The translations under genes were made by a program, and so were the position numbers. Source: Syntrophomonadales bacterium (GTDB taxonomy: Bacteria; Bacillota; Syntrophomonadia; Syntrophomonadales; DTU052). From it: a DNA stretch of 64,000 bases. A model generated the notes under the pieces. The model was not told the origin of the DNA and searched no databases. It worked only from the letters and a program-made list of their open reading frames with translations. Of the stretch, positions 6,961 through 63,288 are shown in pieces (the first letter of the stretch is position 1; the number at the start of each line of letters is the position of its first letter). Location of the stretch: positions 924,967-988,966 of the forward strand of contig JBMNJO010000001.1 of NCBI GenBank assembly GCA_050951725.1, in the 5' to 3' direction.

Positions 6961-6974
6961 AGGAAATGTCTCCT

Positions 6975-7006
6975 AATTTTAAAAGGGCTCTTCTTAGAGC
7001 CCTTTG
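6975..7006 (-). terminator. intrinsic terminator after the EF-G paralog
   Basis: Minus-strand AAAGGGCTCTAAGAAGAGCCCTTTTAAAATT, 6 nt after the stop at 7012. Confidence 0.7.
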
Positions 7007-7011
7007 GTTGT

Positions 7012-9039: not shown

Positions 9040-9115
9040 GTTCCCTCCTTGTTTGTATTCAAGACAGATTTACTTAGTCCACTTCCACAGCAAATCCTCT
9101 TAATTATACCTGATT

Positions 9116-9364: not shown

Positions 9365-10141
9365 CTAAATGTGGTCCACGTAGTCGTGATAGATCCGCCG
9401 GTATTTTTTCACCATTTCATAATTGGTCAGGTCAAAATGAATCGGTGTCAGGGAAACAAACCCTTCATTAACGGCAGTCACATCACTGTCCGGTTCCTGG
9501 TCCTCTTCAACCACATCTCCGCCCATCCAAAAGTAGGTGTTGCCCCGGGGGTCCCTGCGTTCCTCAAAGACATTCTCGTACTGTCTTCTGCCCAAACGGG
9601 TGACCCGCATGCCCTTGATTTCGGGACGGGGTATACCTGGGACATTGATATTTATTATCGTATCCCGGTCAAAACCGTCCTTTTCCAGTTGGCGACAGAC
9701 CGCACGGGTAAAACGGGCGGCGAAACCATAATCCTCCGGGTCCTCCTCCAGACACAGGGACACAGCTATGGATGGCACCCCCATAATGACTCCCTCCATA
9801 GCCGCTGATACCGTCCCGGAATAGAGAACATCCCAACCCAGGTTGGCCCCTTTGTTGATCCCAGAGACTACCAGATCCGGCGGCCCAGGGAGCAGGGCTG
9901 AAATTCCCAGTTTAACACAATCCACCGGGGTTCCGTAGACCACCCAGGTACTCTGGGCGGCATCGATCCCGTCCACACGTTTGATCATAATAGGGTCAAA
10001 AACGGTGATGCCGTGACCGGTACCACTCCGCTCCCGGTCAGGCGCTACCACGAAGACCTCCGCCATCTCAGCCAGGGTCTCCGCCAGCATATGCAGCCCC
10101 GGCGAATTGAGACCATCGTCATTGGTAACCAGTAACCTCAA
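9365..10141 (-). CDS. surE: 5'/3'-nucleotidase SurE
   Basis: 258 aa. The N-terminus MRLLVTNDDGLNSPGL is the SurE signature. Confidence 0.9.
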   Translation of the reverse strand: MRLLVTNDDGLNSPGLHMLAETLAEMAEVFVVAPDRERSGTGHGITVFDPIMIKRVDGIDAAQSTWVVYGTPVDCVKLGISALLPGPPDLVVSGINKGANLGWDVLYSGTVSAAMEGVIMGVPSIAVSLCLEEDPEDYGFAARFTRAVCRQLEKDGFDRDTIININVPGIPRPEIKGMRVTRLGRRQYENVFEERRDPRGNTYFWMGGDVVEEDQEPDSDVTAVNEGFVSLTPIHFDLTNYEMVKKYRRIYHDYVDHI

Positions 10142-10152
10142 TTAATTCCCTC

Positions 10153-10677
10153 CTAGTCGAAAATCCGGAAATGATTAAGCGGCCAGTATATGAGAAAGGC
10201 CTGACCTTTAAGATGGTCTTCGGTTAACCAGCCATTCCACAGGTGACTGTCGTAACTCATGTTGCGGTTATCCCCCATCACAAACAGGGCGTGCTCCGGT
10301 ACTTTGACCGGCCCATACTCGTAATTGGGGGGCTCTGCTATGTATGTTTCCTCCAGAGCCTCATCGTTAACCCATACCTTGCCATCCTTAACCTCTATTT
10401 TGTCTCCTGGCACTCCGATGATGCGCTTAATGAAGTCGTCTTTCTGATTTATGATGGCCGGAGGTTCAAATACCACGATATCCCCGCGCTGCGGCTCCTT
10501 GAAGTAGTAGATGAATTTGTTAACCATTACCCGGTCACCCACCTGAATGGTCGGCAGCATCGAACCTGAAGGAATCCACCGGCCTTCGATGACAAAGGTA
10601 CGGAGGATCATCGCCAGAAAAAATGCCACCACAACTATGCCGATAAACTCTTTTAGGAGACCCCTGAACTGGTTCAT
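10153..10677 (-). CDS. lepB: signal peptidase I
   Basis: 174 aa with an N-terminal TM segment, the SGSMLPT serine box, and the GDNRNMSYDS box. Confidence 0.9.
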   Translation of the reverse strand: MNQFRGLLKEFIGIVVVAFFLAMILRTFVIEGRWIPSGSMLPTIQVGDRVMVNKFIYYFKEPQRGDIVVFEPPAIINQKDDFIKRIIGVPGDKIEVKDGKVWVNDEALEETYIAEPPNYEYGPVKVPEHALFVMGDNRNMSYDSHLWNGWLTEDHLKGQAFLIYWPLNHFRIFD

Positions 10678-10693
10678 AAATTAATCCTCCATA

Positions 10694-10879
10694 TTATATC
10701 TCATAAATACTGACGGTCATCTTGCCTGTTTCCCGGTCTTTGGTCAGCCCAAACATGAGCTTCTTGGACTTCAATGTCTTATTGAGAAAATCCACTACTC
10801 TGATCAATTCCGGACTGCCGTCAAAGGTCTTTTTAGCCAGTAGTTCCAGTTTCCCCGAATCTTCCGGAGCCATAAACAC
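10694..10879 (-). CDS. small hypothetical protein
   Basis: 61 aa ORF co-directional with lepB. No family recognised. Confidence 0.35.
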   Translation of the reverse strand: MFMAPEDSGKLELLAKKTFDGSPELIRVVDFLNKTLKSKKLMFGLTKDRETGKMTVSIYEI

Positions 10880-11035
10880 TCTCCTTTTATATTTTATAGA
10901 ACACCCCGTAATCTTAAAACCGGCTTTCGGTGCCGGTCAGGATTATCAAACAGAGTTGTATGTCTGTAATAGGCCGGACAGCACCGTTTCCCCGGATTAC
11001 AGGCCAGCCAGCAGCGGGATGGCAACTACACCGTT

Positions 11036-11596
11036 CTAATTGCCTCTTATCAGTGCCAGGGCCTCAGCCCGCGATGCGGGATTGGTTTCGAATATTCCTC
11101 TGACCGCCGAGGTAATGGTAAGGGTGCCTGGTTTTAGCACCCCCCGCATGGTCATACACATGTGCTCGGCCTCAATGACCACGATAACCCCCCAGGGCTG
11201 CAGGCGCTCGTTGATGGTGTCCGCTATCTGGGAGGTCAGCCGTTCCTGTACCTGAAGGCGACGGGCAAATCCCTCAACTACCCGGGCCAGTTTGCTGAGT
11301 CCGGTGATCTTTCCTTTGCGTGGTATATACGCCACATGGGCCCTGCCATAGAATGGTAAGAGGTGGTGCTCACACAAAGAATATAGAGGTATATCTTTTA
11401 GCATTACCATCTCATCATGGGACTCGGTGAACATGACTTCAAGGTACTGACCAGGGTCCTCATGGATGCCCTTACATATCTCTTCATACATCCTGGCCAC
11501 CCGGCTGGGTGTGTCCCTCAGTCCCTCGCGCCCGGGGTCCTCCCCCATGGCCTCAAGGATCATGCGGACGGCCTGGGTTATCTTTTCATTATCCAT
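11036..11596 (-). CDS. folE: GTP cyclohydrolase I
   Basis: 186 aa with the CEHHLLPF motif and HMCMTMRG. Confidence 0.9.
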
Positions 11597-11855
11597 ATCA
11601 TTATCTCCAGTCTTGGTTCATTAAAATGGTGTATATGCTGTTTCTGCTATTCCAGTATCGGAGTTCAGACTACCCCTAAATTCTATCATTAAATTGAGGG
11701 AGCGCAAATCAAGAACGAGCCGCTCCTCATCATGGCAACTGGGCGATTAACATTCATTCCGCGTTGGTTCCCTGCGAAAACAGATAACCCGTAAGGTTGG
11801 GTGCAGAATTATGCAGGAGTCTGTGCATGGTGTTAACGCCTGTTATCTTTCATTA

Positions 11856-12947
11856 TTAGTCTGCTCTTACCCTGCATAACAGTATGTTTTTCTCATTTTC
11901 ATAACTGTAATCGCAGCTCTCACTGCGGCTCCGGATAAGCACCTGTCCGAGTTGATCATCCTGGCTCCCGGTTTCAAGCGGATTTAATGGAATCCCGGCG
12001 CTCTCAACGACCAACTCCAGATTACCGCTCTTCTCGGAGTAAGCCAGACTGACTGTAATATCTGAGAAATCCTGCTGCAGGACCAGGATCTCTTCGACCA
12101 GCAAGAGTACATTCCCGCAGACCCGCCTGGATAGGAGGTGTTTTTCACAAAAAGCCTGGATTTCGCCGTTCATGCCATAAAGATCGTAGTCCTCACTGGT
12201 AATACGGCAGCGAAGAGTGCGCACCCGGTTGATGAAGGCTCGGGTTTTTTCTTTCTGTGGGTTTTCAAACAGCTCTTCGGGGGTACCCTCCTCATAGATA
12301 ATACCTTCATCCATATAAAACACGCGGGTAGCCAGATTCTGGGCAAACTCCATCTCGTGAGTGACAATAACCATGGTCATCCCTTCTTTGGCCAGGCGTC
12401 GGATAACCGCCAGCACCTCACTGACCATCGTCGGGTCCAGAGCTGAGGTGGGCTCATCAAAAAGCATGACCTCCGGCTCCATCGCCAGGCAGCGGGCAAT
12501 GGCTACCCTCTGCTTCTGTCCGCCGGAGAGCTCATCCGGAAAAGCATTGGCCTTTTCGGCCAACCCGACCATTTTCAGCAGTTCCATGGCTTTGATGCGC
12601 GCATCGGCCCGGCTCCGTCCCAGGAGCTTTATAGGCCCGATGGTCAGATTATCCATAACAGAAAGGTGAGCATACAGGTTGAACGACTGAAAAACCATGC
12701 CCATCTTCTGGCGTATCCTTGCCACATTGGTATCCTTGTCCAGCAAGGGAACCCCGTCAATGTATATTCTGCCGCCACTCGGTTTCTCCAGCAGGTTGAG
12801 GCAGCGCAAGAGAGTACTTTTCCCGGTGCCTGAAGGTCCAATAATCGCAACAATCTCACCTTTATGGATCACGCTGTTCACGTCCTTCAGCACTTCCAGA
12901 TCACCAAACCTCTTACTCAGGTGTTCAATCTTAATCATTGCTGACAC
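11856..12947 (-). CDS. amino-acid ABC transporter ATP-binding protein with a ~120-aa C-terminal extension
   Basis: Walker [10 protein letters not shown], signature LSGGQKQR, Walker [11 protein letters not shown] and H-loop VTHEM lie in residues 1-240. There are about 120 extra residues after the NBD. Confidence 0.85.
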
Positions 12948-15918
12948 CTCCTACCGGACGGTTCCTTTTCGGGTCAGTTTTTATGGCCAGATAATCCAAT
13001 ACCAGGCCCAGTAACCACGCCATGAGGAAGTAGAGTATGGCCACCATTATCAGGGGGAAGAACGCATCAAAGGTGCGGCTGCGGATAATATCACTGGCCT
13101 TAGTCAGGTCCTGTACTGCTATATAACCAACCACCGAGGTCATCTTCACCATAGAGATGAACTCACCCTTGTAAACAGGAAGCACCTGCCGTATGGCCTG
13201 CGGCATTATTATATACAGGAAGGTTTGCAGTTCGGTGAAGCCACCGGCAATGCCGGCTTCTCTCTGTCCCTTATCCACACTCTCGATGGCGGCGCGGAAC
13301 ATCTCGGAGACATAGGCCCCAAAGTTCATGGCAAAGGCAATCACTGCGGCAATAACCGGTTCAATGTTTACCGAGGCAAACACCACATAAAAGACTATCA
13401 TCAGAAGCACCAGCACCGGAATTCCCCGCAGGACGGAGATATAAACCCGGGCAAACCCCTGCAGGAACTTGTTCTTCGCCATCCGCATGTAGCAGATCAG
13501 GGCCCCCAAGAGGGTACCAAAAATTACCGCCAGGACAGATATCAGCGCGGTAACCTTCAAGCCATCTATTATGAGCTGATAGCGATCCTCCACAATAATA
13601 TTATTGTAAAAACTGTTGCCAACCCGTTGAAGAATAGATTCAGGTTTACCTGCTTCATTCTCGCCGGCATCCTGGCCGGCAATATTGTCCTTATGGGCAA
13701 TCACCGCAGTCTTGAACTCCAGATATTTGTCAGAGAAGTCTATGGTCTGAGCCCTCTCCTCTGTTATTGCGATACCATCGGCTATCATATCAACCTTGCC
13801 CGAGGCCAGGGCTGCGATCAAGGACCCGAACTCCATAGTCATTATCTCCAGAGGATACCCTTCATAGGCTGCAAACCGCTGGATTATCTCAATGTCAAAG
13901 CCGACATACTCATTGTTCATGACCGCCACATATGGAAGGTCACCTACCGCCACCCCCGCAACCAGTTTCTCACCGGTTCTCGGGTTATCAAACTTCGGCA
14001 TGACAGCCTTCTCTGGATCATTCTCCATCCAGCGCTCGTATACCTCATCATAGGTGCCATCGGCCCGTATCTCTTTTAGAAAGTTATTAAATTTCTCCCG
14101 TAACTCAGGGTTATTCTTGCTGAATCCAATTCCCAGGTCCTTGGTGAACACATCATCGGTTACGATCCCGATATCAGGATTGTTTTTTAGCAGTACCTTG
14201 GCTGAGGTATAATCGAGCATGGCCGCGTCGATCTTGTTGCTCTTAAGGGCCAGAATCATGTCTGAAGTACCTTCAAAGCGGTATATTTTGGCTTCAGGAT
14301 ACCTCTCGGCGATAAAGGCATCGAATATCGTCCCAACATATACCCCTACCCGTTTATCGGCTATATCATCAAGCTCTGACATCTTGTTGGAGTTACCCTG
14401 AGCTATGTTCTTTTTCAGAGTTAAGAAAGAAGCCCCTAAATCGTAATATGGATCGGAAAAAGCTATCTCTTTTTGGCGCTCCTCTGTCATCATCAAGCTG
14501 CTGGAGATCATATCAATCTTATTGGTGGACACTGCGGCGATTAAGCTGCCGAATTCCATATCCTGAAACACAAGTTCCTTGCCCAGATAGGCGGCAAACC
14601 TTTGGTCAAGTTCAGCATCGAACCCGATCAATTTTTTATCCTTGACCGCCATGAAGGGAAGTCCCGAATCACTGGCTATTCCAACAATCAGTTTCCCATT
14701 GTTACCGGAGTTCTCGATTACCGGCATTTCGGTAGATCCATCGGTCATCCAGCGTTTAACCATATCATCATAGGTGCCATCAGTTTTGATTTCCTGGAGG
14801 AAACTATTAAATTGTTCACGCAGGGCCTGGTTATCCTTGTTAAATCCCATCCCAATTGGAACTGAGTAGACCACATCACCGAGCATGGCCAGATCCGGGT
14901 TTTCTCGGATTAATCTCCGCAATAATTCATGGTTTATCAAGGCCGCATCAACTTTGTCGCTTTTGAGGGCAATTAACAAATCGGTAATATTCTTGTACTG
15001 CAATAGGCTGGCGTCGGGGTAATTAGCATTGGCATAGGTATCGTGGACCGTGCCTAATAGCACCCCGATACGTTTGTCTCTTATATCATCAACGGTCCCC
15101 AACTGAGCACTGCTGCTGTCAGTTGCAGATTGGTTGTCATCCCGGACCAGAGCGGCAATTCCCCCTGCGTAATAACTCTGGGTGAACAATACCTGTTTCG
15201 CCCTCTCTTCAGTAATGGATAATCCCGCGCCAATCATATCCACCTTGCCGGACACCAGAGCCGGGATCAGGCCGCCAAAATCCATGTTTACCACTTCGAG
15301 CTGCATATCCAGTTCCTGAGCTATGTAGGCAGCTAGTTCAATGTCAAAACCTACAATCTGGTGATTACCGTCCATGAAGGCCATTGGCTCGGTAACTGCC
15401 GCAGTTCCGAATCTTAAAGTGCCATTATCCCCGATGAGTTCAATATCCGGCATCGGAGCCGGCGCACCTCTTTCGGGAAACCAGCGCGTCATCATCTCGT
15501 CATAGGTACCGTTAACCCTTAGTTCATCGATGACTCTATCCGCCGCTGTTTTTATTTCCTGATCGTCAAGTCTCACCGCGAACCCGTAGTTGTCCTCAAC
15601 CAGAACTTCTGGCAATACTGTTACCCCTTCATTTTTACCAGCGATGTTTTGGAGGACGGGTTTATCATAGGCTGCAGCGTCTGCTTTGCCCTCTTTAACT
15701 GCTATAGCACAATCCAGAACCGTATTGTAATAAGTCAACTCGGCGTCTGGAAACCTCTCCCGCACAAACTGGTCCGCAATGGTACCGGTAGGCACAGCGA
15801 AGGTCTTGCCGCCCTGAAGCATCGATAAATCCGTTATAAATCCTTTCTCTCCACCGCATCCCAGCAGCGACAGAGCAAAACAGAGTATTAGGATGATCCC
15901 AACCACTTTATTTCGCAT
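12931..15918 (-). CDS. fused lipoprotein / multi-substrate-binding-domain / amino-acid ABC permease
   Basis: Start moved to [23 protein letters not shown] (AAGGAG RBS; lipobox LLGC). There are repeated PBP type-3 modules (GFDIEL...SGKVDMI...TEERAK) followed by a His/Glu/Gln/Arg-type permease TMD at the C-terminus. Confidence 0.8.
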
Positions 15919-16163
15919 AGCAACACTCCTTATCATTTGGCTCGGAAAATCTTTATCAGAAATGCACCTAAACGGCAATAAAGCTATCCTTGTTCATTCG
16001 ACAGGCGTTTAATATTCTCCTTCGCAAATGCCATTGAATGGTAAAGATAGTTCCATGATTAACCCACAACTTCTGGTTTGCCGCATAGCCTCACTAGCAG
16101 GAACTGGATGTACAGGTTGGGGACTGATAATCATGCCGCCAGACCTGGCGCTTTATGAGCAGT

Positions 16164-16190
16164 CAAAAAAACACCCGTTGACAGGTGTTG
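16164..16190 (-). terminator. intrinsic terminator closing the small-peptide transcription unit
   Basis: Minus-strand AACACCTGTCAACGGGTGTTTTTTTGA. Confidence 0.6.
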
Positions 16191-16401
16191 ATTGAAGAAC
16201 AAAAGATTATTCAGCAGATTCAAATGCGGTTGTTGGAGAGGTCAAAATCGACGAGTTCGCGATTTACATTTTGTTGTTGCCCGAGGTATATGCAAAAATA
16301 TAGGGATGGTACATGAATTTCGCCTTCCTACCATCCCCACATTCGTAAGGCTTTTTCCCGACATGGGTCTTAAGACGATATGTCAGCCCATTTAATAAAA
16401 A

Positions 16402-16539
16402 TCAGGACTTGTTACCGTCATATATACTGTTTACTCCGTATTTTCCTCCAACTTCCTTACCGCCTGATGCCTTTTCCAACTCAGTATCGGTAAGTATCAC
16501 AGTCCCGTTCTTGTCCTTGTCCTTATCCTTATCCGGCAC
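16402..16539 (-). CDS. 45-aa peptide with a double-glycine-type leader (candidate secreted or modified peptide)
   Basis: Below the ORF-track size cutoff. GTG start 5 nt after AAAGGGGTGA. Translation: MPDKDKDKDKNGTVILTDTELEKASGGKEVGGKYGVNSIYDGNKS. A TATAAT lies at 16582-16577. Confidence 0.5.
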   Translation of the reverse strand: MPDKDKDKDKNGTVILTDTELEKASGGKEVGGKYGVNSIYDGNKS

Positions 16540-16974
16540 TCTGATCACCCCTTTCGTTTAATCTCATCTTAATAAGATTATACGATAATTATTTGGAAGT
16601 AGCTCAAACGGCTTGAGAATAAAATACATTTCCGCCTTATAGATGGGGTTATTCCATATATTAATAGCATTGAAATGTTTACACCATATCGTCAATTCCG
16701 TCCAACTTAGTGAGAATATCTTTGGATGCAACTCTTGCACCGAATTCATTTATCTGGAAACAGGCGGGTTGAAAACGACTTGGCAAAAGAATCAGGTGAA
16801 AGAGTCTCCTTGACCCGTACCTGGAATGGTGCCAGAAAAACATTACAGACCCTTACAATCGGAAGACCTTTTGAGAGAATGGAATTCGGATATCTTCGAT
16901 GATATCGCCGTTCATCCGGTTGCCGTGTCGGGACCCTTCAGGCCCGAGGAACCAGAGGTTAATGATTTATAACA

Positions 16975-17622
16975 CTATCTTATATTCGTTACCACGCTTT
17001 CACCGTTTCTGATTTCTATATGGCAGGCAGTGGATCCGGCATCAGCCAGGTGCTGGTTGTGGGTGACCATGATCACCTGGCGGTCAAATGAATTGCACAC
17101 AGCATTCAGGAACTCCGCCACCTGACGTACATACTGTTCGGAAACGTGTTTGCCAGGTTCGTCCAGGATCAGGGGGCCGCCGAGGGGGGGACGGCTGGTT
17201 TCCAGAAGAGCTACACGCAAAGCCAGGGAAATAACATCAACAATTCCGCCTCCCCGAGAGTCACGCGGATCATTCTGTACCACCTGTTCTCCGCCATAGG
17301 TCGAGGAAACAGAAAATTCAGCCTCGGACCTCTCGGCGCGTTCCTCAAAATCAATATGAAAAACGTGGTCACTCTCAAATATCATCTTCAGGGCGTTGGT
17401 TACCAGCCGTTCCATGGTTTCCTTGGACTCACGGCGGGCATAATCGCCGGCCATGCTGAACAGCCTTGCCACCTGGCGCAGCGTTTCGACCTGGTTTTTT
17501 AGATCGGCGATCCGGGCCTCCTTCTGCTGTTTCTGGCCCTGGAGGCTGTCGCGCTGGCCTTTGCGCCGGTTGAGATCATCACGAAAACTAGCCACACTTT
17601 TTTTCAGGGCAGCGTGTTCCAA
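16975..17622 (-). CDS. Rad50/SbcC-like ATPase, C-terminal piece (signature motif, Walker B, H-loop)
   Basis: 215 aa with a TTG start 1 nt after the upstream stop. Coiled-coil N-terminus, then SRGGGIVDVISLALRVAL, LILDEPGKHV and VIMVTHNQ. Confidence 0.8.
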   Translation of the reverse strand: MEHAALKKSVASFRDDLNRRKGQRDSLQGQKQQKEARIADLKNQVETLRQVARLFSMAGDYARRESKETMERLVTNALKMIFESDHVFHIDFEERAERSEAEFSVSSTYGGEQVVQNDPRDSRGGGIVDVISLALRVALLETSRPPLGGPLILDEPGKHVSEQYVRQVAEFLNAVCNSFDRQVIMVTHNQHLADAGSTACHIEIRNGESVVTNIR

Positions 17623-17623
17623 A

Positions 17624-17890
17624 TCACCATCCCACCTTTTTCAGGTACTGCATGGGTATCAATTCCTCAATCCTTTTAATCAGGGAGTCCATTTCCATCC
17701 GAATCTCCCGGATACGGGCATCAAGTTCTTCGGGTTGGCAACCCAGGTCCTCTATACGCTGGTGGACCTGCTCCAGGTCTTTCTTCAGCACCTCGTATCG
17801 GGCCAAGGCCCGGTTCCGGTCATTGCTGGCGTCTTTTAATGCTTTCTCCAACTTCTTAATACGGGCATCGTAAGATTCTTTTTCCAACAA
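17624..17890 (-). CDS. 88-aa coiled-coil protein (middle piece of the split Rad50-like protein)
   Basis: Heptad-rich sequence (KKLEKALKDASNDRNRALARYEVLKKDLEQVHQRIEDL). TTG start after GTGGGGGTG. Confidence 0.6.
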   Translation of the reverse strand: MLEKESYDARIKKLEKALKDASNDRNRALARYEVLKKDLEQVHQRIEDLGCQPEELDARIREIRMEMDSLIKRIEELIPMQYLKKVGW

Positions 17891-18028
17891 CTACACCCCC
17901 ACTTTGGAAAGATGGTTATTATTTGTCGCCCCTTCCAAGGGGCTCTCTTCCTTTACTCCGAATTGTTTATGTTTATGATCACCTGCTGGATATTATATCC
18001 ACGAAAAACAGGTCATACATGGTTTTTT

Positions 18029-19360
18029 CTATAAGATCTCCCGGCGGATACGGGCAATGGTGTCCTGGTTTATCTCGGCGAAACAGGTGGGACATCTCCC
18101 GGCATTCTGCAGGAGGTCACCGTATTCGTCAGCAAGGGTTCGGGCCCGTAAATCGACCTTCTCCAGTTCCTGCTGGGCCTTCTTAACCCCCTCCTCAGCT
18201 TTATGCCAGTTGCCAATGATGTTCTGAAATAATCCCAGACGCGTTAAAAGCGTTAAGGAGTCCTGAATCGCTTGTTCCGCTCCGTCAAGATCTTCCAGTG
18301 ATGCAATTATGGCTGCATAATTCTTCATTTCCTCTGATTTCTGCTTTCGTTCTTTCTCCAGTCCTGCCAGTTCCTTGCGGGTGGCCTGTAACTCAAAGCC
18401 CTCCTGTCTCAGGGTCTTCATCTTATCCAGGTACTCCTCAGTCTTTTCCAGTCCCTGGGTAGAGTCGATAGTCAGGTCACAGATCTTCAGTTCTTCCAGG
18501 GTATGGTTTCGCTGTTGCTGCAGATTACGGATCTCCTCCAGTACGCGCATCAGCCTGGCTATCTCCGCCTGGTTTGTATAGGCCTCATCAAGATGATCGA
18601 GCTGCTCCAGGGCCTCCTTGATTTCTGTCATCTGCTGCCGGGTTTGTCTCAGGGTATTCCGTGCCTCTTCCAAGATCCTGACTTCCCGGTCCAGTTCCGA
18701 GAACCGCTTCAGCAACTGTTCCAGGCTTTCCAGCCGGGTCTCCTCCTCTTCCAGATTGGCATAGTTCTGAAGCTGCTGGTCCAGTAACTCGATATCACCC
18801 TCTAAACGGCTGATCTCGTGAAGTGCCTGGGAGGTATCCCTCAGAGTGTCGCGCTGGGCGGCGTCAATGATGTGCAGGTTGGCCATGCGGCCCAGGATCT
18901 TGGAACGGGTGGTACCTGACTCCTCGAGCAGGAAAGGGGCCTCCAACTGGCTGGCCAGGTTTATCTCCACCGCCCGGTCACGGTCGATGACCAGTTTGGA
19001 GATGTCCAGGGCCTTTCTTACCTCCAAGGGCACTTCCTTGTTGAACCGTTCAAAAACCAAGACCTCCTCGCCCGGGACCTCCAGGATATACCGGTTGACC
19101 CGGCTGCTCTCATCACGGATTCTCTCCACTGCCACCCCGTTGCTCAATTCCACCCGTACCTCGCACCGGGTCTCACCAACCCTGATAAAGCCGGTACCTC
19201 TAGGTTCATTATAAACCAACCAGCGCAGGGCGCGGACAATGGCAGACTTCCCCTGATCAGAGGGACCAACGATTATGTTAAGCCCCGGAGTGAACTCAAA
19301 GTCTGTTTCCCGGTGAGACTGGAAGTTCCTCAGTCGCAGTCTTTTTATGTAGGTCTTCAT
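18029..19360 (-). CDS. Rad50/SbcC-like ATPase, N-terminal piece (Walker A, coiled coil, zinc hook)
   Basis: 443 aa with Walker A GPSDQGKS, a Q-loop region QLEAPFLL, a long coiled coil, and a C-terminal hook GRCPTCFAEI. The ATGA start overlaps the mre11-like stop. Confidence 0.8.
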   Translation of the reverse strand: MKTYIKRLRLRNFQSHRETDFEFTPGLNIIVGPSDQGKSAIVRALRWLVYNEPRGTGFIRVGETRCEVRVELSNGVAVERIRDESSRVNRYILEVPGEEVLVFERFNKEVPLEVRKALDISKLVIDRDRAVEINLASQLEAPFLLEESGTTRSKILGRMANLHIIDAAQRDTLRDTSQALHEISRLEGDIELLDQQLQNYANLEEEETRLESLEQLLKRFSELDREVRILEEARNTLRQTRQQMTEIKEALEQLDHLDEAYTNQAEIARLMRVLEEIRNLQQQRNHTLEELKICDLTIDSTQGLEKTEEYLDKMKTLRQEGFELQATRKELAGLEKERKQKSEEMKNYAAIIASLEDLDGAEQAIQDSLTLLTRLGLFQNIIGNWHKAEEGVKKAQQELEKVDLRARTLADEYGDLLQNAGRCPTCFAEINQDTIARIRREIL

Positions 19361-20346
19361 CGCAAATCTCCCCGTCCCAGAAGTGATTCTTCCGCCTCAG
19401 CGATTCGTCTCAAGGCCTCCAGGCGGACCTCCTCACTAAGGTTCTCCGCCTTGGCCAGTTCGCTTATTATCTGACCGACATTCCAACGTCTCAGTTCTGT
19501 GGCTTCCTTTACCTCCCGGGTGAAACTCTCCATCGCCAGAACCCGGGTCTCCATCTCCTCCACCCGGGTGCGGTCCAGGACCTCCTCTCCTGGAGGTGCT
19601 GACTGCAGGGGGATCAAGCGGCAGTTCACCGCCCCACCTGTAAGGTCAATCAGTGCCACCTTCACTTTCCGCTCAATCTCCCGGTGATGGTTGCTGAGGC
19701 GGACCAAGGCCCCCGGGTTCACATAGTGACGGTCTCCCCGCTGAAGGGCGCCATAACCCAGGTGATAGTGCCCGGAAAGCACCAGGTCGGCACCAGAGTT
19801 CCCCAGATCATCGATCAGGGTATAATCACCCGGGAACTGCTGTCTATCAAGCAGCATCCCGTGAATCAGGTGTATGGTAAGATCGCTCTCTGTATCCTTC
19901 TCCACGCAGTAGTCCAGATGGCGGGGACGCCGGTCAATATCCAGATGATACGGCTGCCCAATGAGGCAGGCCCTGATCCCGCCAGCCTCCAGCCTCACAC
20001 TCTCAGAAGGTCCTAACAAGCGGAAAAATCCCATCCGAGCTGTGAAACCCAGCACGGTACGCGGCAGCGTCTGCAGATTGCCGCCAAAAATGTCGTGGTT
20101 TCCAGCAACCCCATAGAGAGGGACCCTGAGCTCCCGTATTATCTCCAGAAAATCAGCGGCCACAGACAGTGCCGGATTCGGAGTATCAAAAAAGTCTCCC
20201 CCATGCAGCACATAGTCAACCTGGTAGTCATTGGCCAGCCTGACTACTTCCGCCAGCTTTTCTTTCAAGGCAGACAGCAGATTGTCCTTCCGGTTGACCG
20301 GTGAATTCCCCCGGAAATGTGAATCCGTAAAAAACAAAATCCTCAT
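19357..20346 (-). CDS. Mre11/SbcD-like metallophosphoesterase nuclease
   Basis: About 329 aa. Phosphoesterase motifs DSH, GGDFFD, GNHD and GHYH, plus a helical C-terminus. Confidence 0.8.
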   Translation of the reverse strand: MRILFFTDSHFRGNSPVNRKDNLLSALKEKLAEVVRLANDYQVDYVLHGGDFFDTPNPALSVAADFLEIIRELRVPLYGVAGNHDIFGGNLQTLPRTVLGFTARMGFFRLLGPSESVRLEAGGIRACLIGQPYHLDIDRRPRHLDYCVEKDTESDLTIHLIHGMLLDRQQFPGDYTLIDDLGNSGADLVLSGHYHLGYGALQRGDRHYVNPGALVRLSNHHREIERKVKVALIDLTGGAVNCRLIPLQSAPPGEEVLDRTRVEEMETRVLAMESFTREVKEATELRRWNVGQIISELAKAENLSEEVRLEALRRIAEAEESLLGRGDLR

Positions 20347-20609
20347 CAAACTACACCCCTATACATATGGGACACGGGGACAGGTGCCCTGTCCCGCTTT
20401 TGCCCTACTAATTCGGGGACACCCTAATGAATCTCCATTTGGGGGACATCATACTAAATTTTCTATTACTTGAGGAAAGAGAATTTGGTATGGCGTCCCC
20501 CAAATAGACACCTCTATCAAGTAGAACGTAAACCTGGCTCCCCACTCCAGACAAACCGTCCTCCGTTATTGATTCTCACTACAACGCACGGCTTCCTCCC
20601 TCTTTACAT

Positions 20610-22463
20610 CTAATTCCGTGTAGGAAGGCGGTAGACCGTTACAAAGACGTTGTCTTCTTTTACCAGTTCCCCCTTCTGCACCATCTGCCCCAGCAGGCTG
20701 TTGATCTCCGCCCGGCTCATGGGCGTACCCCGCCGCTCCAGTTCCTGCAGGACATCGTTAATGTAGGTTTCATTGAGCGGCAGGTATTTCGTAAGTACCG
20801 ACCGGAACTCGCTGGCCCGGGAATCGGCCATCACTTCAAGCTCATCAAAGGGGTTGTCCTGGTGAGGACTGCGGGTTTTGGCGGCCCTGATTCTGACTGC
20901 CACGGTTCGCCCCACGATCGGTGATGAAATAAAGCCGTAACCGGAGGTAAGGTAGGGCAGACGCCGGATTTCTTCGCGACCCAGGTCAGTTTCTTCACTT
21001 ATAACCGACAGGTCCATGGATCTGACGGTGCGGAAGATAATCTTGGTATTGAGCTGGGCATTTATCGTATCATCTAGCAGGGCCGGCCGCTGACTGGCCA
21101 GAACCAGGAACACTCCGTATTTTCTGCCTTCCTGAGCGATTTCCCGGAACTCACGCAGTGAGGGAGAGGAATGATCACCTTTGGGCGCAAAGTTGTGAGC
21201 CTCATCAGTTACCACCAGGAATGGAGGAAAACTTGCGGCCGACTGCCCCTTCTGCAGGGCATCCCGGTATTCCCGCCGTTTACCATAGAGGTTTCGCAAT
21301 ACATATGAGGCATACACCCGCAACATCCTGATCGAGCCCCGGATCACGGTAACCTGCTGGTTTCGCAGTCCTTCCTCTATCCGGGTAATCCCGGCCTCGT
21401 GAAAGATACCTTCCCGTTTCAGGCTGTAGAGTCTCCAGCGGACTGCCCTCAGGCTGGCAGGTTGGCCCACCTGGTTCTGCAGGACCTTAAGCCGTTTCCA
21501 TTCCCGCTCCCGCTCCGGTCCACTCCCCCGGTTGAAGAACTCCTGCCGGTAGTCAGCCTCGTTATTCTCCAGCAGTCCGATCAGGTTGTCCAACCGTTCG
21601 GCAAAGGTGGTTAAACTGTCCTTTTTCAGGAGTACCGCCCGGGCGGCTGATTCCATGGCTTCACTGAGCGGGCTGACCGCTCCCAGCAGGTTGCACAGAT
21701 CACCCTCAGTAAGCATATCGAACCGTACCCCGATGTCCTGTCCCACAGTCAGGATCTGAAAACAGGAATCAAAAGACTCCTTAAAACCAGCAGGCAGGTC
21801 AGGCAGAAGCGGCTCAGAAAAACTCATCTCGTAGTGCGGGTCAAATACGATAACCGGCAGTCTCTTCTTCATGAATTCCTCAATCAGCACCCGGACCCCA
21901 AATGACTTGCCGGAACCGGACCCGCCAAAGATCCCGATGTGGGGATAGTCCTGCATGCTGCGGTAATCCAGCAGGAAAGGTACCCCCTGCTGCTCCACCA
22001 TCTTTCCCTCCTGAAACAGAGGGGCCAGGTGGCGTAAATAATCCGGTAGCGTCGGGTCCAGGGTCTCCGTACCCAGTATGACCCCCAGGGCCATAGACCG
22101 TTCCGGTTCCGCCTGCAGCAGAAGGTCCGCCACCTCCGTAAAATCAGGGACCCGGGCGCAAGACCCGGTTTTGACAGGATAGAAGAGCTCGCTGATGACC
22201 CTGATTTTACCCAGGTAAACTGTATCCCGCTCCAGTTCGTATCCAACCGCCTGCAATGCCGACACGATCTCGTGCCCCATCAGATACGGGGAACCCTCAT
22301 CAACCAGCGGCACCAGGGGATTAAGGGAGTAGGTCTCCACCACCTCGCCTACCGCGGTTTCCGGAGTATGCCCCTCCATGACCAGGAGCTCATTCAGCCG
22401 GAAAGGCCGGTCCTTACTGGCCACCCAGACATCTCGTTCATTGGTCCTCCCCACGACCTGCAC
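20610..22463 (-). CDS. HerA-like (FtsK/HerA superfamily, DUF87) ATPase
   Basis: 617 aa with Walker A GGSGSGKS, Walker B VVTDEAHNF, the LASQRP motif, and a winged-helix-like C-terminus. Confidence 0.8.
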   Translation of the reverse strand: MQVVGRTNERDVWVASKDRPFRLNELLVMEGHTPETAVGEVVETYSLNPLVPLVDEGSPYLMGHEIVSALQAVGYELERDTVYLGKIRVISELFYPVKTGSCARVPDFTEVADLLLQAEPERSMALGVILGTETLDPTLPDYLRHLAPLFQEGKMVEQQGVPFLLDYRSMQDYPHIGIFGGSGSGKSFGVRVLIEEFMKKRLPVIVFDPHYEMSFSEPLLPDLPAGFKESFDSCFQILTVGQDIGVRFDMLTEGDLCNLLGAVSPLSEAMESAARAVLLKKDSLTTFAERLDNLIGLLENNEADYRQEFFNRGSGPEREREWKRLKVLQNQVGQPASLRAVRWRLYSLKREGIFHEAGITRIEEGLRNQQVTVIRGSIRMLRVYASYVLRNLYGKRREYRDALQKGQSAASFPPFLVVTDEAHNFAPKGDHSSPSLREFREIAQEGRKYGVFLVLASQRPALLDDTINAQLNTKIIFRTVRSMDLSVISEETDLGREEIRRLPYLTSGYGFISSPIVGRTVAVRIRAAKTRSPHQDNPFDELEVMADSRASEFRSVLTKYLPLNETYINDVLQELERRGTPMSRAEINSLLGQMVQKGELVKEDNVFVTVYRLPTRN

Positions 22464-22481
22464 TGAATAACACTCTCCCCT

Positions 22482-23462
22482 CTACAGCCCGCGTCGCTCG
22501 CGGTTGGCAGTAAAAAACCTCTCCCTCACCAGAGGATCCAGACCGTTCATTATCACCGTTTCCATGGATTTACGGGTCAGCCTGACCTCCCGGTCGACCA
22601 GATCAAGCCACGCTGGAATGCCCCTACCCTGGGAAGGGGTTAACGAATAGATTAGATTCATAGCTGGCAGCAGGAACTCCCCCTGCTCCGCCAGGAAGTC
22701 ACAGGCAACTGCCTGGGGTGTGCTGCCCATACGGGCAAACACTGTGGTATAATTCCGCTTGATCGCGCTCTCCCCACCCAGAGCCACCATTTCACCCACC
22801 TCAAGGAGCCCGAACAGGAATTCACGATCATATATACGCAGACCCGGCACCTCCAGCCCGGTCAGTGAACAGAGCTCAGCAGTGGCGACCTCTTCGATCA
22901 CCCCGACCAGTATACAGTTGTGAGTTCGAGCCTCACTGACCAGTAACTCCCATTCGGGAAAGCGGTCAAACAACAAAAAGCCCCCATCAAGCATGATCAT
23001 GAAGGGCTTAAATGTTTGCAGGGCGTTCAAGGCCAGTCTTATTTCCATGTGAGCCATCTTCTCGCCCATCAGGCGGCGGTATGCCTCACTATCCTCCAGC
23101 CGGTTCTTGACGGCGAACTCACTTACTTCCGTGCTCAGTTCAGGATCAAAAGGGCAATAAATCTCGGAACCACTCAACTGGTTAGGTTCACCCTTGATAC
23201 TTCCCTTGGCCAAGGCCTGAACCAGGCAGACGGTATAAGGATAAAGGCCTCCGTAATCAGCCCGTGAGCCATCGACGGCTATCAAGGTCCGTCCCCCGGT
23301 CAACTCTACAATTTCCCAACGGTTAAGCCGCTGCAGAAAGCCGAAATCTGCAAGCATACGCAGTCTCTGGCGCCGGGTTTCCAGGGAAGGACAGAGGGAA
23401 TCACGATGGAGGAAATATTCGTTCAGGCGTCGGGTGGCGGCGAGAACCTCGTGGTTTAGCAT
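22482..23462 (-). CDS. NurA-like nuclease
   Basis: About 326 aa with acidic motifs IAVDGS, IMLDGGF and GVIEEV. It lies directly upstream of herA with an 18-nt gap. Confidence 0.7.
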   Translation of the reverse strand: MLNHEVLAATRRLNEYFLHRDSLCPSLETRRQRLRMLADFGFLQRLNRWEIVELTGGRTLIAVDGSRADYGGLYPYTVCLVQALAKGSIKGEPNQLSGSEIYCPFDPELSTEVSEFAVKNRLEDSEAYRRLMGEKMAHMEIRLALNALQTFKPFMIMLDGGFLLFDRFPEWELLVSEARTHNCILVGVIEEVATAELCSLTGLEVPGLRIYDREFLFGLLEVGEMVALGGESAIKRNYTTVFARMGSTPQAVACDFLAEQGEFLLPAMNLIYSLTPSQGRGIPAWLDLVDREVRLTRKSMETVIMNGLDPLVRERFFTANRERRGL

Positions 23463-23584
23463 TTTCAACCTCGCCCGGATTTTTCCTTATTATATATTAA
23501 CCTCCGACCCCGTTCAATTACCTGCTAAACACCCAGGGACGTTAAGTCATCATGAGATGAAGCTGTTCAGCTTGCAGGGAAACT

Positions 23585-23810
23585 TAAGCATGATTCCCCG
23601 CGAAAACCCAGGAGGCGGTTGGCGTAGCATGGTAGCAACGGTGAAGGCTCACGGCGAAAGGGGGCGAGCCCCATGGACGGGGCGAGAGGGCCACTGAACA
23701 CGGACATGAATTGGCCCGGTGCCCCATTCGTCGTGAGACAAGCAGTTGGTGTTGCCCATGTGAAGTCTGGCGACGAATATTTATGCATCCAAACTCCGAA
23801 TCGCAACTTT
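23585..23810 (-). repeat. structured intergenic repeat, copy E2 (strand tentative)
   Basis: Shares the GTTTGGATGCATAAATATTCGTCGCCAGACTTC terminus and internal blocks with the other copies. It is bracketed by a perfect 13-nt direct repeat, TTGCAGGGAAACT, at 23572-23584 and 23811-23823. Confidence 0.6.
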
Positions 23811-23910
23811 TTGCAGGGAAACTATTAACTCGTTTGCAAACGCAGGAGCCAAGCTCATTCGATTGCTGGACGAGCCGGATGAACGGATGGTGTCCAAAAA
23901 GGAAGGACGG

Positions 23911-63276: not shown

Positions 63277-63288
63277 GCTGCAGCTAAG

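What the first reader, a model, noticed from the sequence alone, without database searches (positions are those of the whole stretch)
16975..23462. Archaeal-style NurA-HerA-Mre11-Rad50 gene set in a bacterial chromosome, possibly a repair or defence module
Six co-directional ORFs encode, in order:

- a NurA-like nuclease (DGS/DGG acidic motifs)
- a HerA/FtsK-type ATPase (GGSGSGKS, DEAH-like VVTDEAHNF)
- an Mre11/SbcD phosphoesterase (DSH, GDFFD, GNHD, GHYH)
- a Rad50/SbcC-type ABC ATPase with a CPTC zinc hook

This four-component combination is the hallmark end-resection operon of thermophilic archaea. It is uncommon as a single cluster in Firmicutes, which normally use AddAB and SbcCD.

HerA-type ATPases and SMC/Rad50-like ATPases paired with nucleases are also recurrent building blocks of anti-phage systems. 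The cluster is flanked by atypical DNA. On one side is an AT-rich spacer with the peptide micro-gene. On the other is repeat copy E2 with 13-nt direct repeats. From sequence alone, housekeeping repair and defence-island roles cannot be separated.
Basis: partly seen in the sequence, partly recalled or inferred. Interest (0 to 1): 0.7.

Follow-up and report, generated by a model that had tools for sequence, protein, structure and literature searches.

The report
Six-gene DNA-break repair operon, three-piece Rad50
This is a chromosomal DNA double-strand-break repair operon (NurA, HerA, Mre11-like nuclease, Rad50) of a Syntrophothermus-like Firmicute, notable because its Rad50 is naturally made of three separate proteins, a layout conserved in hundreds of Firmicutes and some of their phages and, as far as I could find, not described.

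Summary

- **Not a rare archaeal import or defence island.** The Mre11-like/Rad50 module occurs in at least 262 species-level genomes, essentially all Bacillota.
- **Housekeeping context.** In 28 of 74 informative loci the module sits directly behind recA (recA-module-rny-ymdB-spoVS). In 32 it follows NurA-HerA, as here. Where unlinked, NurA-HerA lies in the core abrB-metG block.
- **Syntenic and constrained.** The window locus is syntenic across Syntrophomonadaceae, has housekeeping neighbours, shows dN/dS of 0.04-0.18, and gives no system-specific PADLOC hit.
- **Rad50 is always three proteins.** These are an N-lobe plus arm ending about 20 residues after the CPxC zinc hook (443 aa), an ~85-aa helical protein, and a C-lobe (215 aa).
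- **Unusual arm.** It is built of ~47-residue helical repeats whose number varies between lineages, while the two partner proteins keep a constant length.
- **Phages share the split.** Bacillus phage 0305phi8-36 and PHROGs 16465/15167 have the same layout.

Best reading: a housekeeping end-resection machine. It is a new structural variant of a known kind.

The parts
23489..23517 (-). sigma-70-like promoter (TTGAAC-17-TATAAT) about 25 nt upstream of the nurA start codon
   Evidence: best-scoring consensus match in the region (10 of 12). This is a pattern match only.
22482..23462 (-). nurA: NurA-family 5'-3' nuclease, 326 aa from the ATG at 23462 (longest ORF starts at the TTG at 23468)
   Evidence: - Pfam PF09376, E=1.5e-13, full-length match above the gathering score.
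- D66-G67-S68, E142 and D161-G162 are invariant in 22 orthologues.
- dN/dS 0.18.
- No sequence match to any PDB chain.
20610..22463 (-). herA: HerA/FtsK-type hexameric translocase ATPase, 617 aa
   Evidence: - DUF87, E=8e-19.
- Best NCBIfam hits are archaeal HerA models, but far below their cutoffs.
- PDB hits are HerA chains, E=1e-16 to 1e-11.
- 1692 homologues; the top 120 are all 594-624 aa when full length and from Bacillota.
- dN/dS 0.07.
20350..20609 (-). herA-mre11 spacer carrying a long palindromic element (arms around 20434-20508)
   Evidence: - Inverted self-match.
- RNA fold z-score -3.3.
- Shared only with the closest relative, L006; the spacer is 0-105 nt in other relatives. It is therefore a lineage-specific insert, not a conserved part of the operon.
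19357..20349 (-). mre11/sbcD-like metallophosphoesterase nuclease, 330 aa; its stop overlaps the Rad50-N start (ATGA)
   Evidence: - Metallophos, E=4e-15.
- Motifs I-V are invariant in 26 orthologues.
- The orthologue profile's top 26 PDB hits are all Mre11/SbcD.
- PHROG 100, SbcD-like.
- Fused to the Rad50 head in P0430 and in phage 0305phi8-36 gp8.
18029..19360 (-). rad50-N: Rad50 N-lobe (Walker A, Q-loop), helical arm of ~47-aa repeats, and CPTC zinc hook; the protein ends 18 residues after the hook (443 aa)
   Evidence: - Pfam and NCBIfam hits.
- 112 of 120 homologues end 21-52 residues after the first hook cysteine.
- C423, P424 and C426 are invariant.
- AF2 pLDDT 83, with five helices separated by short breaks.
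- Foldseek best match is P. furiosus Rad50.
- The hook region matches 1l8d and 6zff.
17624..17890 (-). cc88: conserved ~85-aa two-helix protein (motif LG[VC]xPExL), the middle piece of the split Rad50
   Evidence: - Found between rad50-N and rad50-C in 73 loci, including phage contigs.
- dN/dS 0.04.
- No Pfam family above cutoff.
16975..17622 (-). rad50-C: coiled-coil stub plus Rad50/SMC C-lobe (signature-like SRGGG, Walker B LILDEP, H-loop His), 215 aa; its start lies 1 nt after the cc88 stop
   Evidence: - NCBIfam Rad50_Sulf model positions 666-868 of 872.
- 450 homologues of 190-256 aa.
- AF2 pLDDT 89.
- Foldseek matches the C-terminal head fragments of Rad50 and SMC: 1f2u_D, 9a9j_B, 5h66_B.
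- PHROG 15167, E=5e-62.
- dN/dS 0.04.

Best explanation
The six genes form one chromosomal, vertically inherited operon for processing DNA double-strand breaks, feeding RecA-dependent recombination.

**Proposed mechanism.**
1. The Mre11-like nuclease binds a Rad50 ATPase head that has to be assembled from two polypeptides. The N-lobe comes from Rad50-N and the C-lobe from Rad50-C.
2. The ~85-aa helical protein cc88 joins the arm region.
3. The CPTC zinc hook at the C-terminus of Rad50-N dimerises or tethers complexes.
4. This complex recognises and clips DNA ends.
5. The HerA hexamer with a NurA dimer then translocates on the duplex and degrades the 5' strand, leaving 3' tails for RecA.

**Shown here.**
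- The family identity of each protein.
- That the two Rad50 halves are complementary parts of one ABC head.
- That the split is conserved and under purifying selection.
- That the module is genomically coupled to recA or to NurA-HerA across Bacillota.

**Inferred.** The physical assembly, the enzymatic activities, the order of action and the in vivo role.
For: **Family identity:**

**Complementary halves.**
- Walker A and the Q-loop occur only in Rad50-N. The signature motif, Walker B and the H-loop occur only in Rad50-C.
- Rare single-chain fusions join N-lobe to C-lobe (P0412, P0485), or Mre11 to N-lobe to C-lobe (P0430).
- Phage 0305phi8-36 gp8 is an Mre11::Rad50-N fusion.

**Conservation.**
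- Mre11-like and Rad50-N were found together in 79 of the 80 genome loci fetched.
- The ~85-aa protein follows them in nearly all loci that extend far enough.
- Rad50-C follows it in all such loci but 13.
- dN/dS is 0.04-0.18 for all six genes.

**Recombination context.**
- 28 of 74 informative loci have recA just upstream. In 17 of these the gap is 0-3 nt or the ORFs overlap. rny-ymdB-spoVS lies downstream.
- 32 of 74 have NurA-HerA upstream instead.
- Where NurA-HerA is unlinked from the module, it sits between abrB and metG, in the tmk-holB-yabA...ksgA core block.

**Local context.**
- The locus is syntenic across Syntrophomonadaceae.
- Neighbours are housekeeping genes, with no integrase or defence gene.

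**Translational coupling:** the mre11-like stop overlaps the rad50-N start, and rad50-C starts 1 nt after the cc88 stop.
Against: - No biochemical or genetic data exist for any member.
- No LexA (Cheo) box lies near the promoter, so damage induction is not supported here.
- The ascending arm (~257 aa) is much longer than the available descending helices (~140 aa). Its length varies in ~47-aa steps without matching changes in the partner proteins. The canonical antiparallel Rad50 coiled coil therefore cannot simply be assumed.
- 13 loci, including Acetivibrio thermocellus, lack an adjacent Rad50-C.
- Two Syntrophomonadaceae genomes with the same flanks lack NurA-HerA, so the two modules are separable.
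- Related modules occur in phages, so horizontal movement happens.
Confidence: 0.75

Rival explanations
1. The cluster is an anti-phage or anti-plasmid defence system. A HerA ATPase with a nuclease, together with an SMC/Rad50-like ATPase with a nuclease, would sense and destroy foreign DNA, in the manner of SIR2-HerA, Lamassu, Wadjet or Gabija.
For: - PADLOC HerA, LmuB, GajA, mad3 and mad8 models give hits.
- NCBIfam anti-phage HerA models hit at 48-58 bits.
- In Mahella, NurA-HerA lies next to a type I CRISPR-Cas cassette.
- NurA-HerA is absent from two syntenic relatives.
Against: - The PADLOC and NCBIfam hits are confined to the shared P-loop regions. They score below the archaeal HerA and Rad50 repair models, and far below every curated cutoff.
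- NurA has no PADLOC hit at all.
- The position is conserved at family level.
- Across classes the modules sit in core loci: recA-rny and abrB-metG.
- No defence or mobile genes are among the neighbours.
- Purifying selection is strong and HerA identity is 43-50% across classes. This is unlike fast-turnover defence genes.
Confidence: 0.1
2. The Mre11-like/split-Rad50 module is a domesticated or remnant phage recombination module. It would serve a mobile element rather than the host.
For: - The same three-piece Rad50 occurs in Bacillus phages 0305phi8-36, vB_BboS-125 and phBC6A51.
- It also occurs on IMG/VR contigs carrying an integrase, a CI repressor and UvsX.
- The PHROG 16465 and 15167 matches are strong, E=1e-69 and 5e-62.
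Against: - No phage genes lie within the 64-kb window around the cluster.
- The locus is syntenic across a bacterial family.
- Gene order differs. Cellular loci have mre11 first. The viral contigs have rad50N-cc-rad50C-mre11 or rad50N-mre11-rad50C.
- Identity to phage copies is 28-41%, no higher than to distant Bacillota.
Confidence: 0.07
3. The three Rad50 ORFs are fragments of a decaying rad50/sbcC gene, broken by nonsense or frameshift mutations. The cluster would then be non-functional.
For: - Rad50 and SbcC are normally single chains.
- rad50-N and cc88 are in the same reading frame, separated by 138 nt.
Against: - The same break points recur in the 80 genome loci and in phages. All 112 full-length homologues end 21-52 residues after the first hook cysteine. 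Rad50-C homologues are 190-256 aa.
- dN/dS is 0.04 for cc88 and for Rad50-C.
- The 138-nt gap contains further in-frame stops, and the gap length varies among relatives. Readthrough is therefore excluded.
Confidence: 0.01

Closest known systems
Archaeal herA-mre11-rad50-nurA end-resection operon (Sulfolobus, Pyrococcus, Thermococcus; e.g. PMC2288612, PMC3326311)
   Same: - The same four protein families sit in one co-directional operon.
- The Rad50 N-lobe, hook and C-lobe match archaeal Rad50 best among solved structures and NCBIfam models.
- HerA matches archaeal HerA models best.
   Different: - This is a bacterial clade.
- All scores are far below the archaeal equivalog cutoffs, e.g. HerA 73 bits against 970 and Rad50 72 bits against 1000.
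- The gene order here is nurA-herA-mre11-rad50. From my own knowledge, the archaeal order is usually herA-mre11-rad50-nurA.
- Rad50 is three polypeptides, with a short arm of ~47-aa repeats.
- In many relatives the two gene pairs are unlinked.
Deinococcus radiodurans NurA-HerA (PMC9960219) and Thermus HepA (PMC5448004)
   Same: A bacterial nurA-herA gene pair implicated in DNA end resection.
   Different: - Those papers treat nurA-herA as a two-gene operon of its own (PMC9960219).
- Neither describes linkage to Mre11/Rad50 genes or a split Rad50.
- The window NurA has no detectable sequence match to any solved NurA.
Bacterial SbcCD (E. coli, B. subtilis) and T. maritima Mre11-Rad50
   Same: - An Mre11/SbcD-type phosphoesterase paired with a zinc-hook ABC ATPase.
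- The Mre11-like profile aligns to T. maritima Mre11 over positions 1-219.
   Different: - SbcC and Rad50 are single chains of roughly 850-1050 aa (own knowledge).
- The TIGR00619 sbcD and NF041751 sbcC cutoffs are not met.
- No match was found beyond the nuclease core of Mre11, so a capping domain was not detected.
Bacillus phage 0305phi8-36 gp8/gp7/gp5, vB_BboS-125 gp32/gp34/gp35, and PHROGs 16465 ('exonuclease') and 15167 ('ATPase')
   Same: The same three-piece Rad50 layout: N-half to the hook, an ~80-90-aa protein, and a ~210-235-aa C-lobe.
   Different: - These are phage-borne and have a different gene order.
- In 0305phi8-36 the nuclease is fused to Rad50-N, and an extra gene (gp6) lies between the pieces.
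- Published analysis of gp8 recorded that one P-loop NTPase segment "was not observed" (PMC3175470). That paper does not mention gp5, the separately encoded C-lobe.
Defence systems with HerA or SMC-like ATPases (SIR2-HerA, DUF4297-HerA, Lamassu LmuB, Gabija GajA, Septu/retron PtuA, MADS mad3/mad8)
   Same: Shared P-loop ATPase folds, with partial HMM hits.
   Different: - No effector or partner genes of those systems are present.
- The hits are limited to ATPase cores.
- The genomic context is core housekeeping.

Membership tests
NurA nuclease (PF09376) | Full-length match to the NurA domain model above the curated threshold | tested here: met
   51.2 bits against a cutoff of 21, covering profile positions 2-253 of 254. 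Orthologues in L001 and L090-L092 also carry PF09376.
NurA nuclease (PF09376) | Conserved acidic catalytic residues of the RNase H-like fold | tested here: met
   D66 (in DGS), E142, D161 (in DGG), D214, D257 and D292 are invariant in 22 orthologues. The mapping onto the catalytic residues of solved NurA structures was not done.
NurA nuclease (PF09376) | NurA three-dimensional fold and dimer | not tested
   There is no PDB sequence hit.
HerA (FtsK-HerA superfamily) | HerA central ATPase domain with Walker A and Walker B | tested here: met
   DUF87 at 69.1 bits against 23.2. GGSGSGKS and VVTDEAH are visible in the translation. PDB hits are to HerA chains.
HerA (FtsK-HerA superfamily) | Adjacent, co-directional nurA partner gene | tested here: met
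   an 18-nt gap here. The same pairing appears in every HerA context examined.
HerA (FtsK-HerA superfamily) | Equivalog of the archaeal DSB-repair HerA (NF040819, NF040937) | tested here: not met
   73 and 70 bits against cutoffs of 970 and 800. This is a distinct bacterial clade.
Mre11/SbcD nuclease | Five calcineurin-type phosphoesterase motifs | tested here: met
   D9/H11, G50-G51-D52 with D55 (GDFFD), G83-N84-H85, H163, and H194/H196 are invariant or nearly so in 26 orthologues.
Mre11/SbcD nuclease | Closer to Mre11/SbcD than to other metallophosphoesterases | tested here: met
   the top 26 PDB hits are all Mre11/SbcD (best E=2.7e-10). The next family, Vps29, scores 1.6e-3. PHROG 100 is SbcD-like.
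Mre11/SbcD nuclease | Curated family thresholds (TIGR00619 sbcD, TIGR00583 mre11) | tested here: not met
   29.4 bits against 77.65, and 31.9 bits against 434.6.
Mre11/SbcD nuclease | Capping domain and C-terminal Rad50-binding helices | tested here: inconclusive
   Profile matches stop at about position 220. Residues 255-330 read as helical in the sequence, but this was not modelled.
Rad50/SbcC ABC ATPase | N-lobe with Walker A and Q-loop, of Rad50 fold | tested here: met
   G32, G37, K38 and Q138 are invariant. Foldseek best hits are 9a9j_A and 1f2u, P. furiosus Rad50.
Rad50/SbcC ABC ATPase | C-lobe with signature motif, Walker B and H-loop | tested here: met
   Present, but on a separate 215-aa protein. 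R123-G124-G125-G126, D154-E155-P156 and H188 are invariant. The fold matches Rad50 and SMC C-terminal head fragments.
Rad50/SbcC ABC ATPase | CxxC zinc hook | tested here: met
   C423-P424-x-C426 are invariant in 102 sequences. The profile matches the Rad50 hook structures 1l8d and 6zff.
Rad50/SbcC ABC ATPase | Single polypeptide whose two coiled-coil strands are joined at the hook | tested here: not met
   - There are three ORFs, and the split is conserved in the 80 genome loci and in phages.
- The ascending and descending helical lengths do not match.
Known anti-phage systems (PADLOC-DB 2.0) | System-specific protein models and partner genes | tested here: not met
   only generic HerA, LmuB, GajA and mad hits over the P-loop regions. 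NurA has no hit. No partner genes are among the neighbours.
Defence island or mobile element | Variable location, with neighbouring defence or mobility genes | tested here: not met
   The location is syntenic across Syntrophomonadaceae. Neighbours are housekeeping genes. Elsewhere the modules sit in core loci.

The most novel reading that the evidence does not exclude
The family is an ancestral, recA-linked Mre11-Rad50 machine of Bacillota in which the Rad50 arm is not a canonical intramolecular antiparallel coiled coil.

- The chain is naturally "nicked" just after the zinc hook.
- The arm is an array of a variable number of ~47-residue helical repeats carried only by the N-half.
- The constant-length ~85-aa protein and the C-half stub complete it in some other way. 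For example, several copies of the small protein could decorate the repeats, or arms could pair in trans.

If so, it would be a natural experiment on what the continuity and length of the Rad50 and SMC arms are for.
Probability: 0.3. Interest if true: 0.8.

Novelty: new variant of a known kind. Interest (0 to 1): 0.6.

Why it matters
- **Rad50 architecture.** Rad50/SbcC is treated as a single chain whose two coiled-coil strands meet at the zinc hook, and how arm and hook transmit information is still debated. A widespread lineage that makes Rad50 from three proteins, cut right after the hook, offers a ready-made system for testing those ideas. The arm repeats vary in number, and some relatives lack arms altogether.
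- **NurA-HerA in bacteria.** The pair is fused to the Mre11-Rad50 module in some lineages and unlinked in others. It sits next to recA or in core replication-gene blocks. This is comparative evidence that NurA-HerA and Mre11-Rad50 cooperate in bacteria as they do in archaea. It also suggests many anaerobic and thermophilic Firmicutes have a resection pathway beyond AddAB and SbcCD.
- **Annotation.** These proteins are currently labelled "AAA family ATPase", "ATP-binding protein", "exonuclease" or "chromosome segregation ATPase". A published analysis of phage 0305phi8-36 did not find the second Rad50 ATPase segment. It is encoded three genes downstream, by gp5.

Tried and rejected
- **SOS regulation.** A search for a Firmicute LexA/Cheo box (CGAACNNNNGTTCG, up to 2 mismatches) found none in the promoter region. 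The window total matched chance expectation.
- **Readthrough or frameshift joining the Rad50 pieces.** Rejected. The 138-nt gap has further in-frame stops, rad50-C is in another frame, and gap lengths vary among relatives.
- **cc88 as a diverged copy of an arm repeat or of the Rad50-C stub.** hhalign probabilities were 12% or lower, so this is not supported.
- **NurA against solved structures.** Neither the single sequence nor the 22-sequence profile gave a hit.
- **Structured RNA in the spacers.** Rfam at gathering thresholds found nothing in or beside the cluster. The herA-mre11 hairpin is shared only with the closest relative.
- **Literature.** Six full-text searches and several papers gave no description of a natural split Rad50, or of a Firmicute NurA-HerA-Mre11-Rad50 operon. 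Iyer et al. 2004 and Constantinesco et al. 2004 are not held, so an earlier passing mention cannot be excluded.
- **Missing Rad50-C in Acetivibrio-type loci.** A profile HMM found none within ±10 kb. Whole genomes could not be searched.
- **Arm geometry.** The AF2 monomer of Rad50-N gives helix boundaries only (pTM 0.39). It says nothing reliable about how the helices pack.

Full report
**1. Observation**

The region 16975-23468 carries six co-directional minus-strand ORFs:
- NurA: 22482-23462 from its ATG; the longest ORF starts at 23468.
- HerA: 20610-22463.
- A metallophosphoesterase: 19357-20349.
- A 443-aa ATPase: 18029-19360.
- An 88-aa ORF: 17624-17890.
- A 215-aa ATPase fragment: 16975-17622.

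Pfam gives NurA (E=1.5e-13, full length), DUF87/HerA (8e-19), Metallophos (4e-15) and AAA_23/SMC_N.

The gene junctions suggest one operon:
- The mre11-like stop overlaps the start of the 443-aa gene (ATGA).
- The 215-aa gene starts 1 nt after the stop of the 88-aa gene.
- The best sigma-70-like site lies just upstream of nurA.

The exact HerA protein, with the same six gene calls, occurs on contigs assembled from several independent runs.

**2. Rad50 is three proteins, and that is the family norm**

Motif distribution across the pieces:
- The 443-aa protein has the Walker A motif, the Q-loop, a long helical region and the CPTC hook. It then ends 18 residues later.
- The signature-like motif (SRGGG), Walker B (LILDEP) and the H-loop histidine are on the 215-aa protein.

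Evidence that the split is conserved:
- Of 120 homologues of the N-half, 112 are full length and all end 21-52 residues after the first hook cysteine. C423, P424 and C426 are invariant.
- The 450 homologues of the C-half are 190-256 aa.
- An exhaustive search of 1.84 billion representatives finds 1257 relatives at E≤1e-10. The top 150 are almost all stand-alone proteins of ~200-260 aa.
- In the 80 genome loci fetched with the N-half profile, Mre11-like and Rad50-N are adjacent in 79. The small helical protein follows in nearly all loci that extend far enough. The C-half is present in all such loci but 13.
- dN/dS against the closest relative is 0.17 for Rad50-N, 0.04 for cc88 and 0.04 for Rad50-C. 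These are not gene fragments in decay.

Evidence that the pieces are Rad50:
- AF2 models are confident: pLDDT 83 for the N-half and 89 for the C-half.
- Foldseek matches the N-terminal and C-terminal head fragments of P. furiosus Rad50 and of SMC proteins.
- The hook region of the profile matches the Rad50 hook structures 1l8d and 6zff.
- The classic Rad50 head structure 1f2u holds the N- and C-terminal head segments as separate chains (A/B and C/D). A two-chain head is therefore physically possible.

Rare relatives act as Rosetta stones:
- P0412 and P0485 join the N-lobe directly to the C-lobe, with no CxxC hook and little or no arm.
- P0430 is Mre11-like + N-lobe + C-lobe in a single chain.

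**3. The arm is unusual**

- Hydrophobic autocorrelation over 102 arms peaks at lags 47 and 94 (0.29 and 0.25). This is above the heptad lag of 7 (0.22).
- AF2 places helix breaks at 199-202, 255-256, 302-307 and 355-357.
- Family lengths cluster near 390, 440, 485 and 530 aa.
- The small protein (78-101 aa) and the C-half (about 215-230 aa) do not co-vary with arm length.
- The ascending helices total ~257 aa. About 140 aa are available to descend.

A simple one-to-one antiparallel coiled coil therefore cannot hold for the whole family. I could not resolve the real geometry.

**4. Distribution and context**

The pattern scan found 262 relatives among one-genome-per-species contigs. In the 80 loci inspected, the lineage names are Bacillota, from many families: Syntrophomonadaceae, Thermacetogeniaceae, Tepidanaerobacteraceae, Thermosediminibacter, Acetivibrio, Peptococcaceae, Symbiobacteriaceae, Natroniella, Mahella, Tumebacillus and Marininema.

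Three MAGs are labelled otherwise. The two labelled Chitinophagales and Acidobacteriota share Syntrophomonadaceae flanks and are probably mis-binned. The one labelled Ignavibacteriales has an Acetivibrio-type locus.

Among 74 loci with enough upstream DNA:

| Context upstream of the module | Loci | Notes |
|---|---|---|
| recA | 28 | 17 with a 0-3 nt gap or overlap; typically cinA-ligT-recA-[module]-rny-ymdB-spoVS |
| NurA-HerA, as in the window | 32 | |
| Other | 14 | Includes the Acetivibrio type: HisPhos-mre11-rad50N-cc-rimO-pgsA, with no Rad50-C within 10 kb |

HerA orthologues at 43-50% identity are found across classes. In Mahella, Anaerosalibacter and Selenihalanaerobacter the NurA-HerA pair sits between abrB and metG. 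That places it in the origin-proximal core block tmk-holB-yaaT-yabA-...-rsmI-abrB | nurA-herA | metG-tatD-rnmV-ksgA. Mahella and the Halanaerobiales thus have both modules, unlinked.

Fusion of the two modules into one operon in some lineages, and separation in others, is standard comparative evidence of a functional link.

**5. The window locus is not an island**

- The flanks are conserved in order across Syntrophomonadaceae. Upstream lie a DinG-like helicase, a ZIP transporter and a YdcZ exporter. Downstream lie folE, signal peptidase, surE and an EF-G paralogue.
- Pfam shows no integrase, transposase or defence gene nearby.
- The AT-rich spacer and the ABC transporter downstream are an insertion seen only in the window and its closest relative.
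- The 13-nt direct repeats bracket a ~240-bp insert in the upstream spacer. Its core recurs at two other places in the window.
- Two relatives with the same flanks lack NurA-HerA (L011, L012). That pair can therefore be lost or gained, while the Mre11-Rad50 module stays.

**6. Defence versus repair**

- PADLOC gives only generic P-loop hits and nothing for NurA.
- NCBIfam ranks the archaeal repair HerA and Rad50 models above the anti-phage HerA models, all far below their cutoffs.
- Together with the recA and abrB-metG contexts and the strong purifying selection, the evidence favours a housekeeping end-processing role.
- No LexA box was found, so regulation is unknown.

**7. Phages**

- The N-half matches PHROG 16465 (E=1e-69). 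The C-half matches PHROG 15167 (E=5e-62).
- Bacillus phage 0305phi8-36 encodes gp8 (769 aa; its C-terminal ~430 residues match Rad50-N, and it was published as an Mre11/Rad50 fusion), gp7 (92 aa), gp6 and gp5 (the C-lobe).
- vB_BboS-125 has gp32, gp34 and gp35 in the same roles.
- IMG/VR contigs carry the pieces in other orders, next to an integrase, a CI repressor, helicases or UvsX.
- A 2011 paper noted that the 0305phi8-36 fusion lacks one ATPase segment (PMC3175470). That segment is gp5.

The split design is therefore shared between Bacillota and their phages. The direction of transfer is not settled.

**8. Comparison and verdict**

In function, this most resembles the archaeal HerA-NurA plus Mre11-Rad50 resection system.

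In membership:
- NurA, HerA, the Mre11 nuclease core and the Rad50 head and hook features are met.
- The curated archaeal and bacterial equivalog thresholds are not met.
- The single-chain Rad50 architecture is not met.

I found no paper describing a natural split Rad50 or this Firmicute operon. Two key older papers were not available.

I rate it a new structural variant of a known kind. It is an ordinary repair function carried by an unusual, widespread and apparently overlooked Rad50 architecture.

Noticed in passing
window 6301-6888 (-): A full-length OLE (Ornate Large Extremophilic) RNA: Rfam RF01071, 484.6 bits, model positions 1-616 of 616. The apparent conserved ORFs at 6368-6787 and 6922-7371 seen in relatives overlap it wholly or partly, so they probably reflect conservation of the RNA rather than coding sequence.
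   Followed up: no
window 16402-16539 (-): A small ORF in the AT-rich spacer downstream of the cluster, preceded by a Shine-Dalgarno-like AAAGGGG. It encodes VPDKDKDKDKNGTVILTDTELEKASGG|KEVGGKYGVNSIYDGNKS. This looks like a double-glycine leader peptide followed by an 18-residue core, i.e. bacteriocin- or RiPP-like. A terminator-like hairpin follows at 16170-16189.
   Followed up: no
window 11856-15978 (-) plus spacer 15979-16974: A 1015-aa fusion of three SBP_bac_3 solute-binding domains with a permease domain, plus an ABC ATPase gene. Together with the ~1-kb AT-rich spacer, these lie between rad50-C and folE only in the window and its closest relative, L006. Other Syntrophomonadaceae go straight from rad50-C to folE.
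   Followed up: partly
window 23572-23823; also 2783-2846 and 45733-45781: - A ~240-bp insert between the ydcZ-like gene and the nurA promoter, bracketed by a perfect 13-nt direct repeat (TTGCAGGGAAACT).
- A 49-66-nt core of it recurs, inverted, at two other intergenic places in the window.
- It looks like a small non-autonomous repeat element.
   Followed up: partly
window 20434-20508: A long palindromic element (GGGGACRCCATAC...GTATGRTGTCCCC) in the 260-nt herA-mre11 spacer. The RNA fold z-score is -3.3. It is shared only with L006. Other relatives have 0-105-nt spacers or overlapping genes.
   Followed up: partly
L086/L087 (Acetivibrio thermocellus) and 12 other loci (L039, L048, L054, L057, L060, L061, L065, L070, L073, L076, L078, L081): These loci have mre11-like, rad50-N and the small helical gene, followed directly by rimO-pgsA. 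No Rad50 C-lobe gene lies within 10 kb, even by profile HMM. Without it the ATPase would lack its signature and Walker B motifs. The gene may be elsewhere in the genome, or the module may work differently.
   Followed up: partly
proteins P0412, P0485, P0430 (metagenomic representatives): Single-chain relatives without a CxxC hook and with little or no arm. P0412 is N-lobe + C-lobe in 368 aa, and P0485 is the same in 403 aa. P0430 is Mre11-like + N-lobe + C-lobe in 693 aa. They resemble the minimal heads engineered for crystallography.
   Followed up: partly
L103 (Bacillus phage 0305phi8-36, record 146905-150941): gp5, annotated "ATPase", is the Rad50 C-lobe that a published analysis of the gp8 Mre11/Rad50 fusion reported as not observed. 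gp7 (92 aa) sits where the small helical protein sits in the cellular operons, but its sequence was not compared.
   Followed up: partly
L090 (Mahella australiensis, locus 6990-16962): Here nurA-herA is followed directly by a type I CRISPR-Cas cassette (Cas6, Cas8-like TM1802, Cas7, Cas5, Cas3). Upstream it keeps the rsmI-abrB core context.
   Followed up: no
L013, L014, L076 (and proteins P0019, P0131, P0271, P0288): Contigs or proteins from MAGs labelled Chitinophagales, Acidobacteriota, Ignavibacteriales, Saccharibacteria or Methylocystaceae carry this Bacillota module. L013 and L014 also have Syntrophomonadaceae-type flanks. Binning or labelling errors are likely.
   Followed up: partly
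window 29080-31605 (-): An 841-aa DinG/XPD-like helicase (DEAD_2 + Helicase_C_2) lies five genes upstream of nurA. It keeps that position in several Syntrophomonadaceae loci, e.g. L011, L012, L018, L019, L038 and L072.
   Followed up: no
window 59543-59752 and 63261-63477: Two diverged direct repeats (73-79% identity), spaced ~3.7 kb apart. They probably mark paralogous genes.
   Followed up: no
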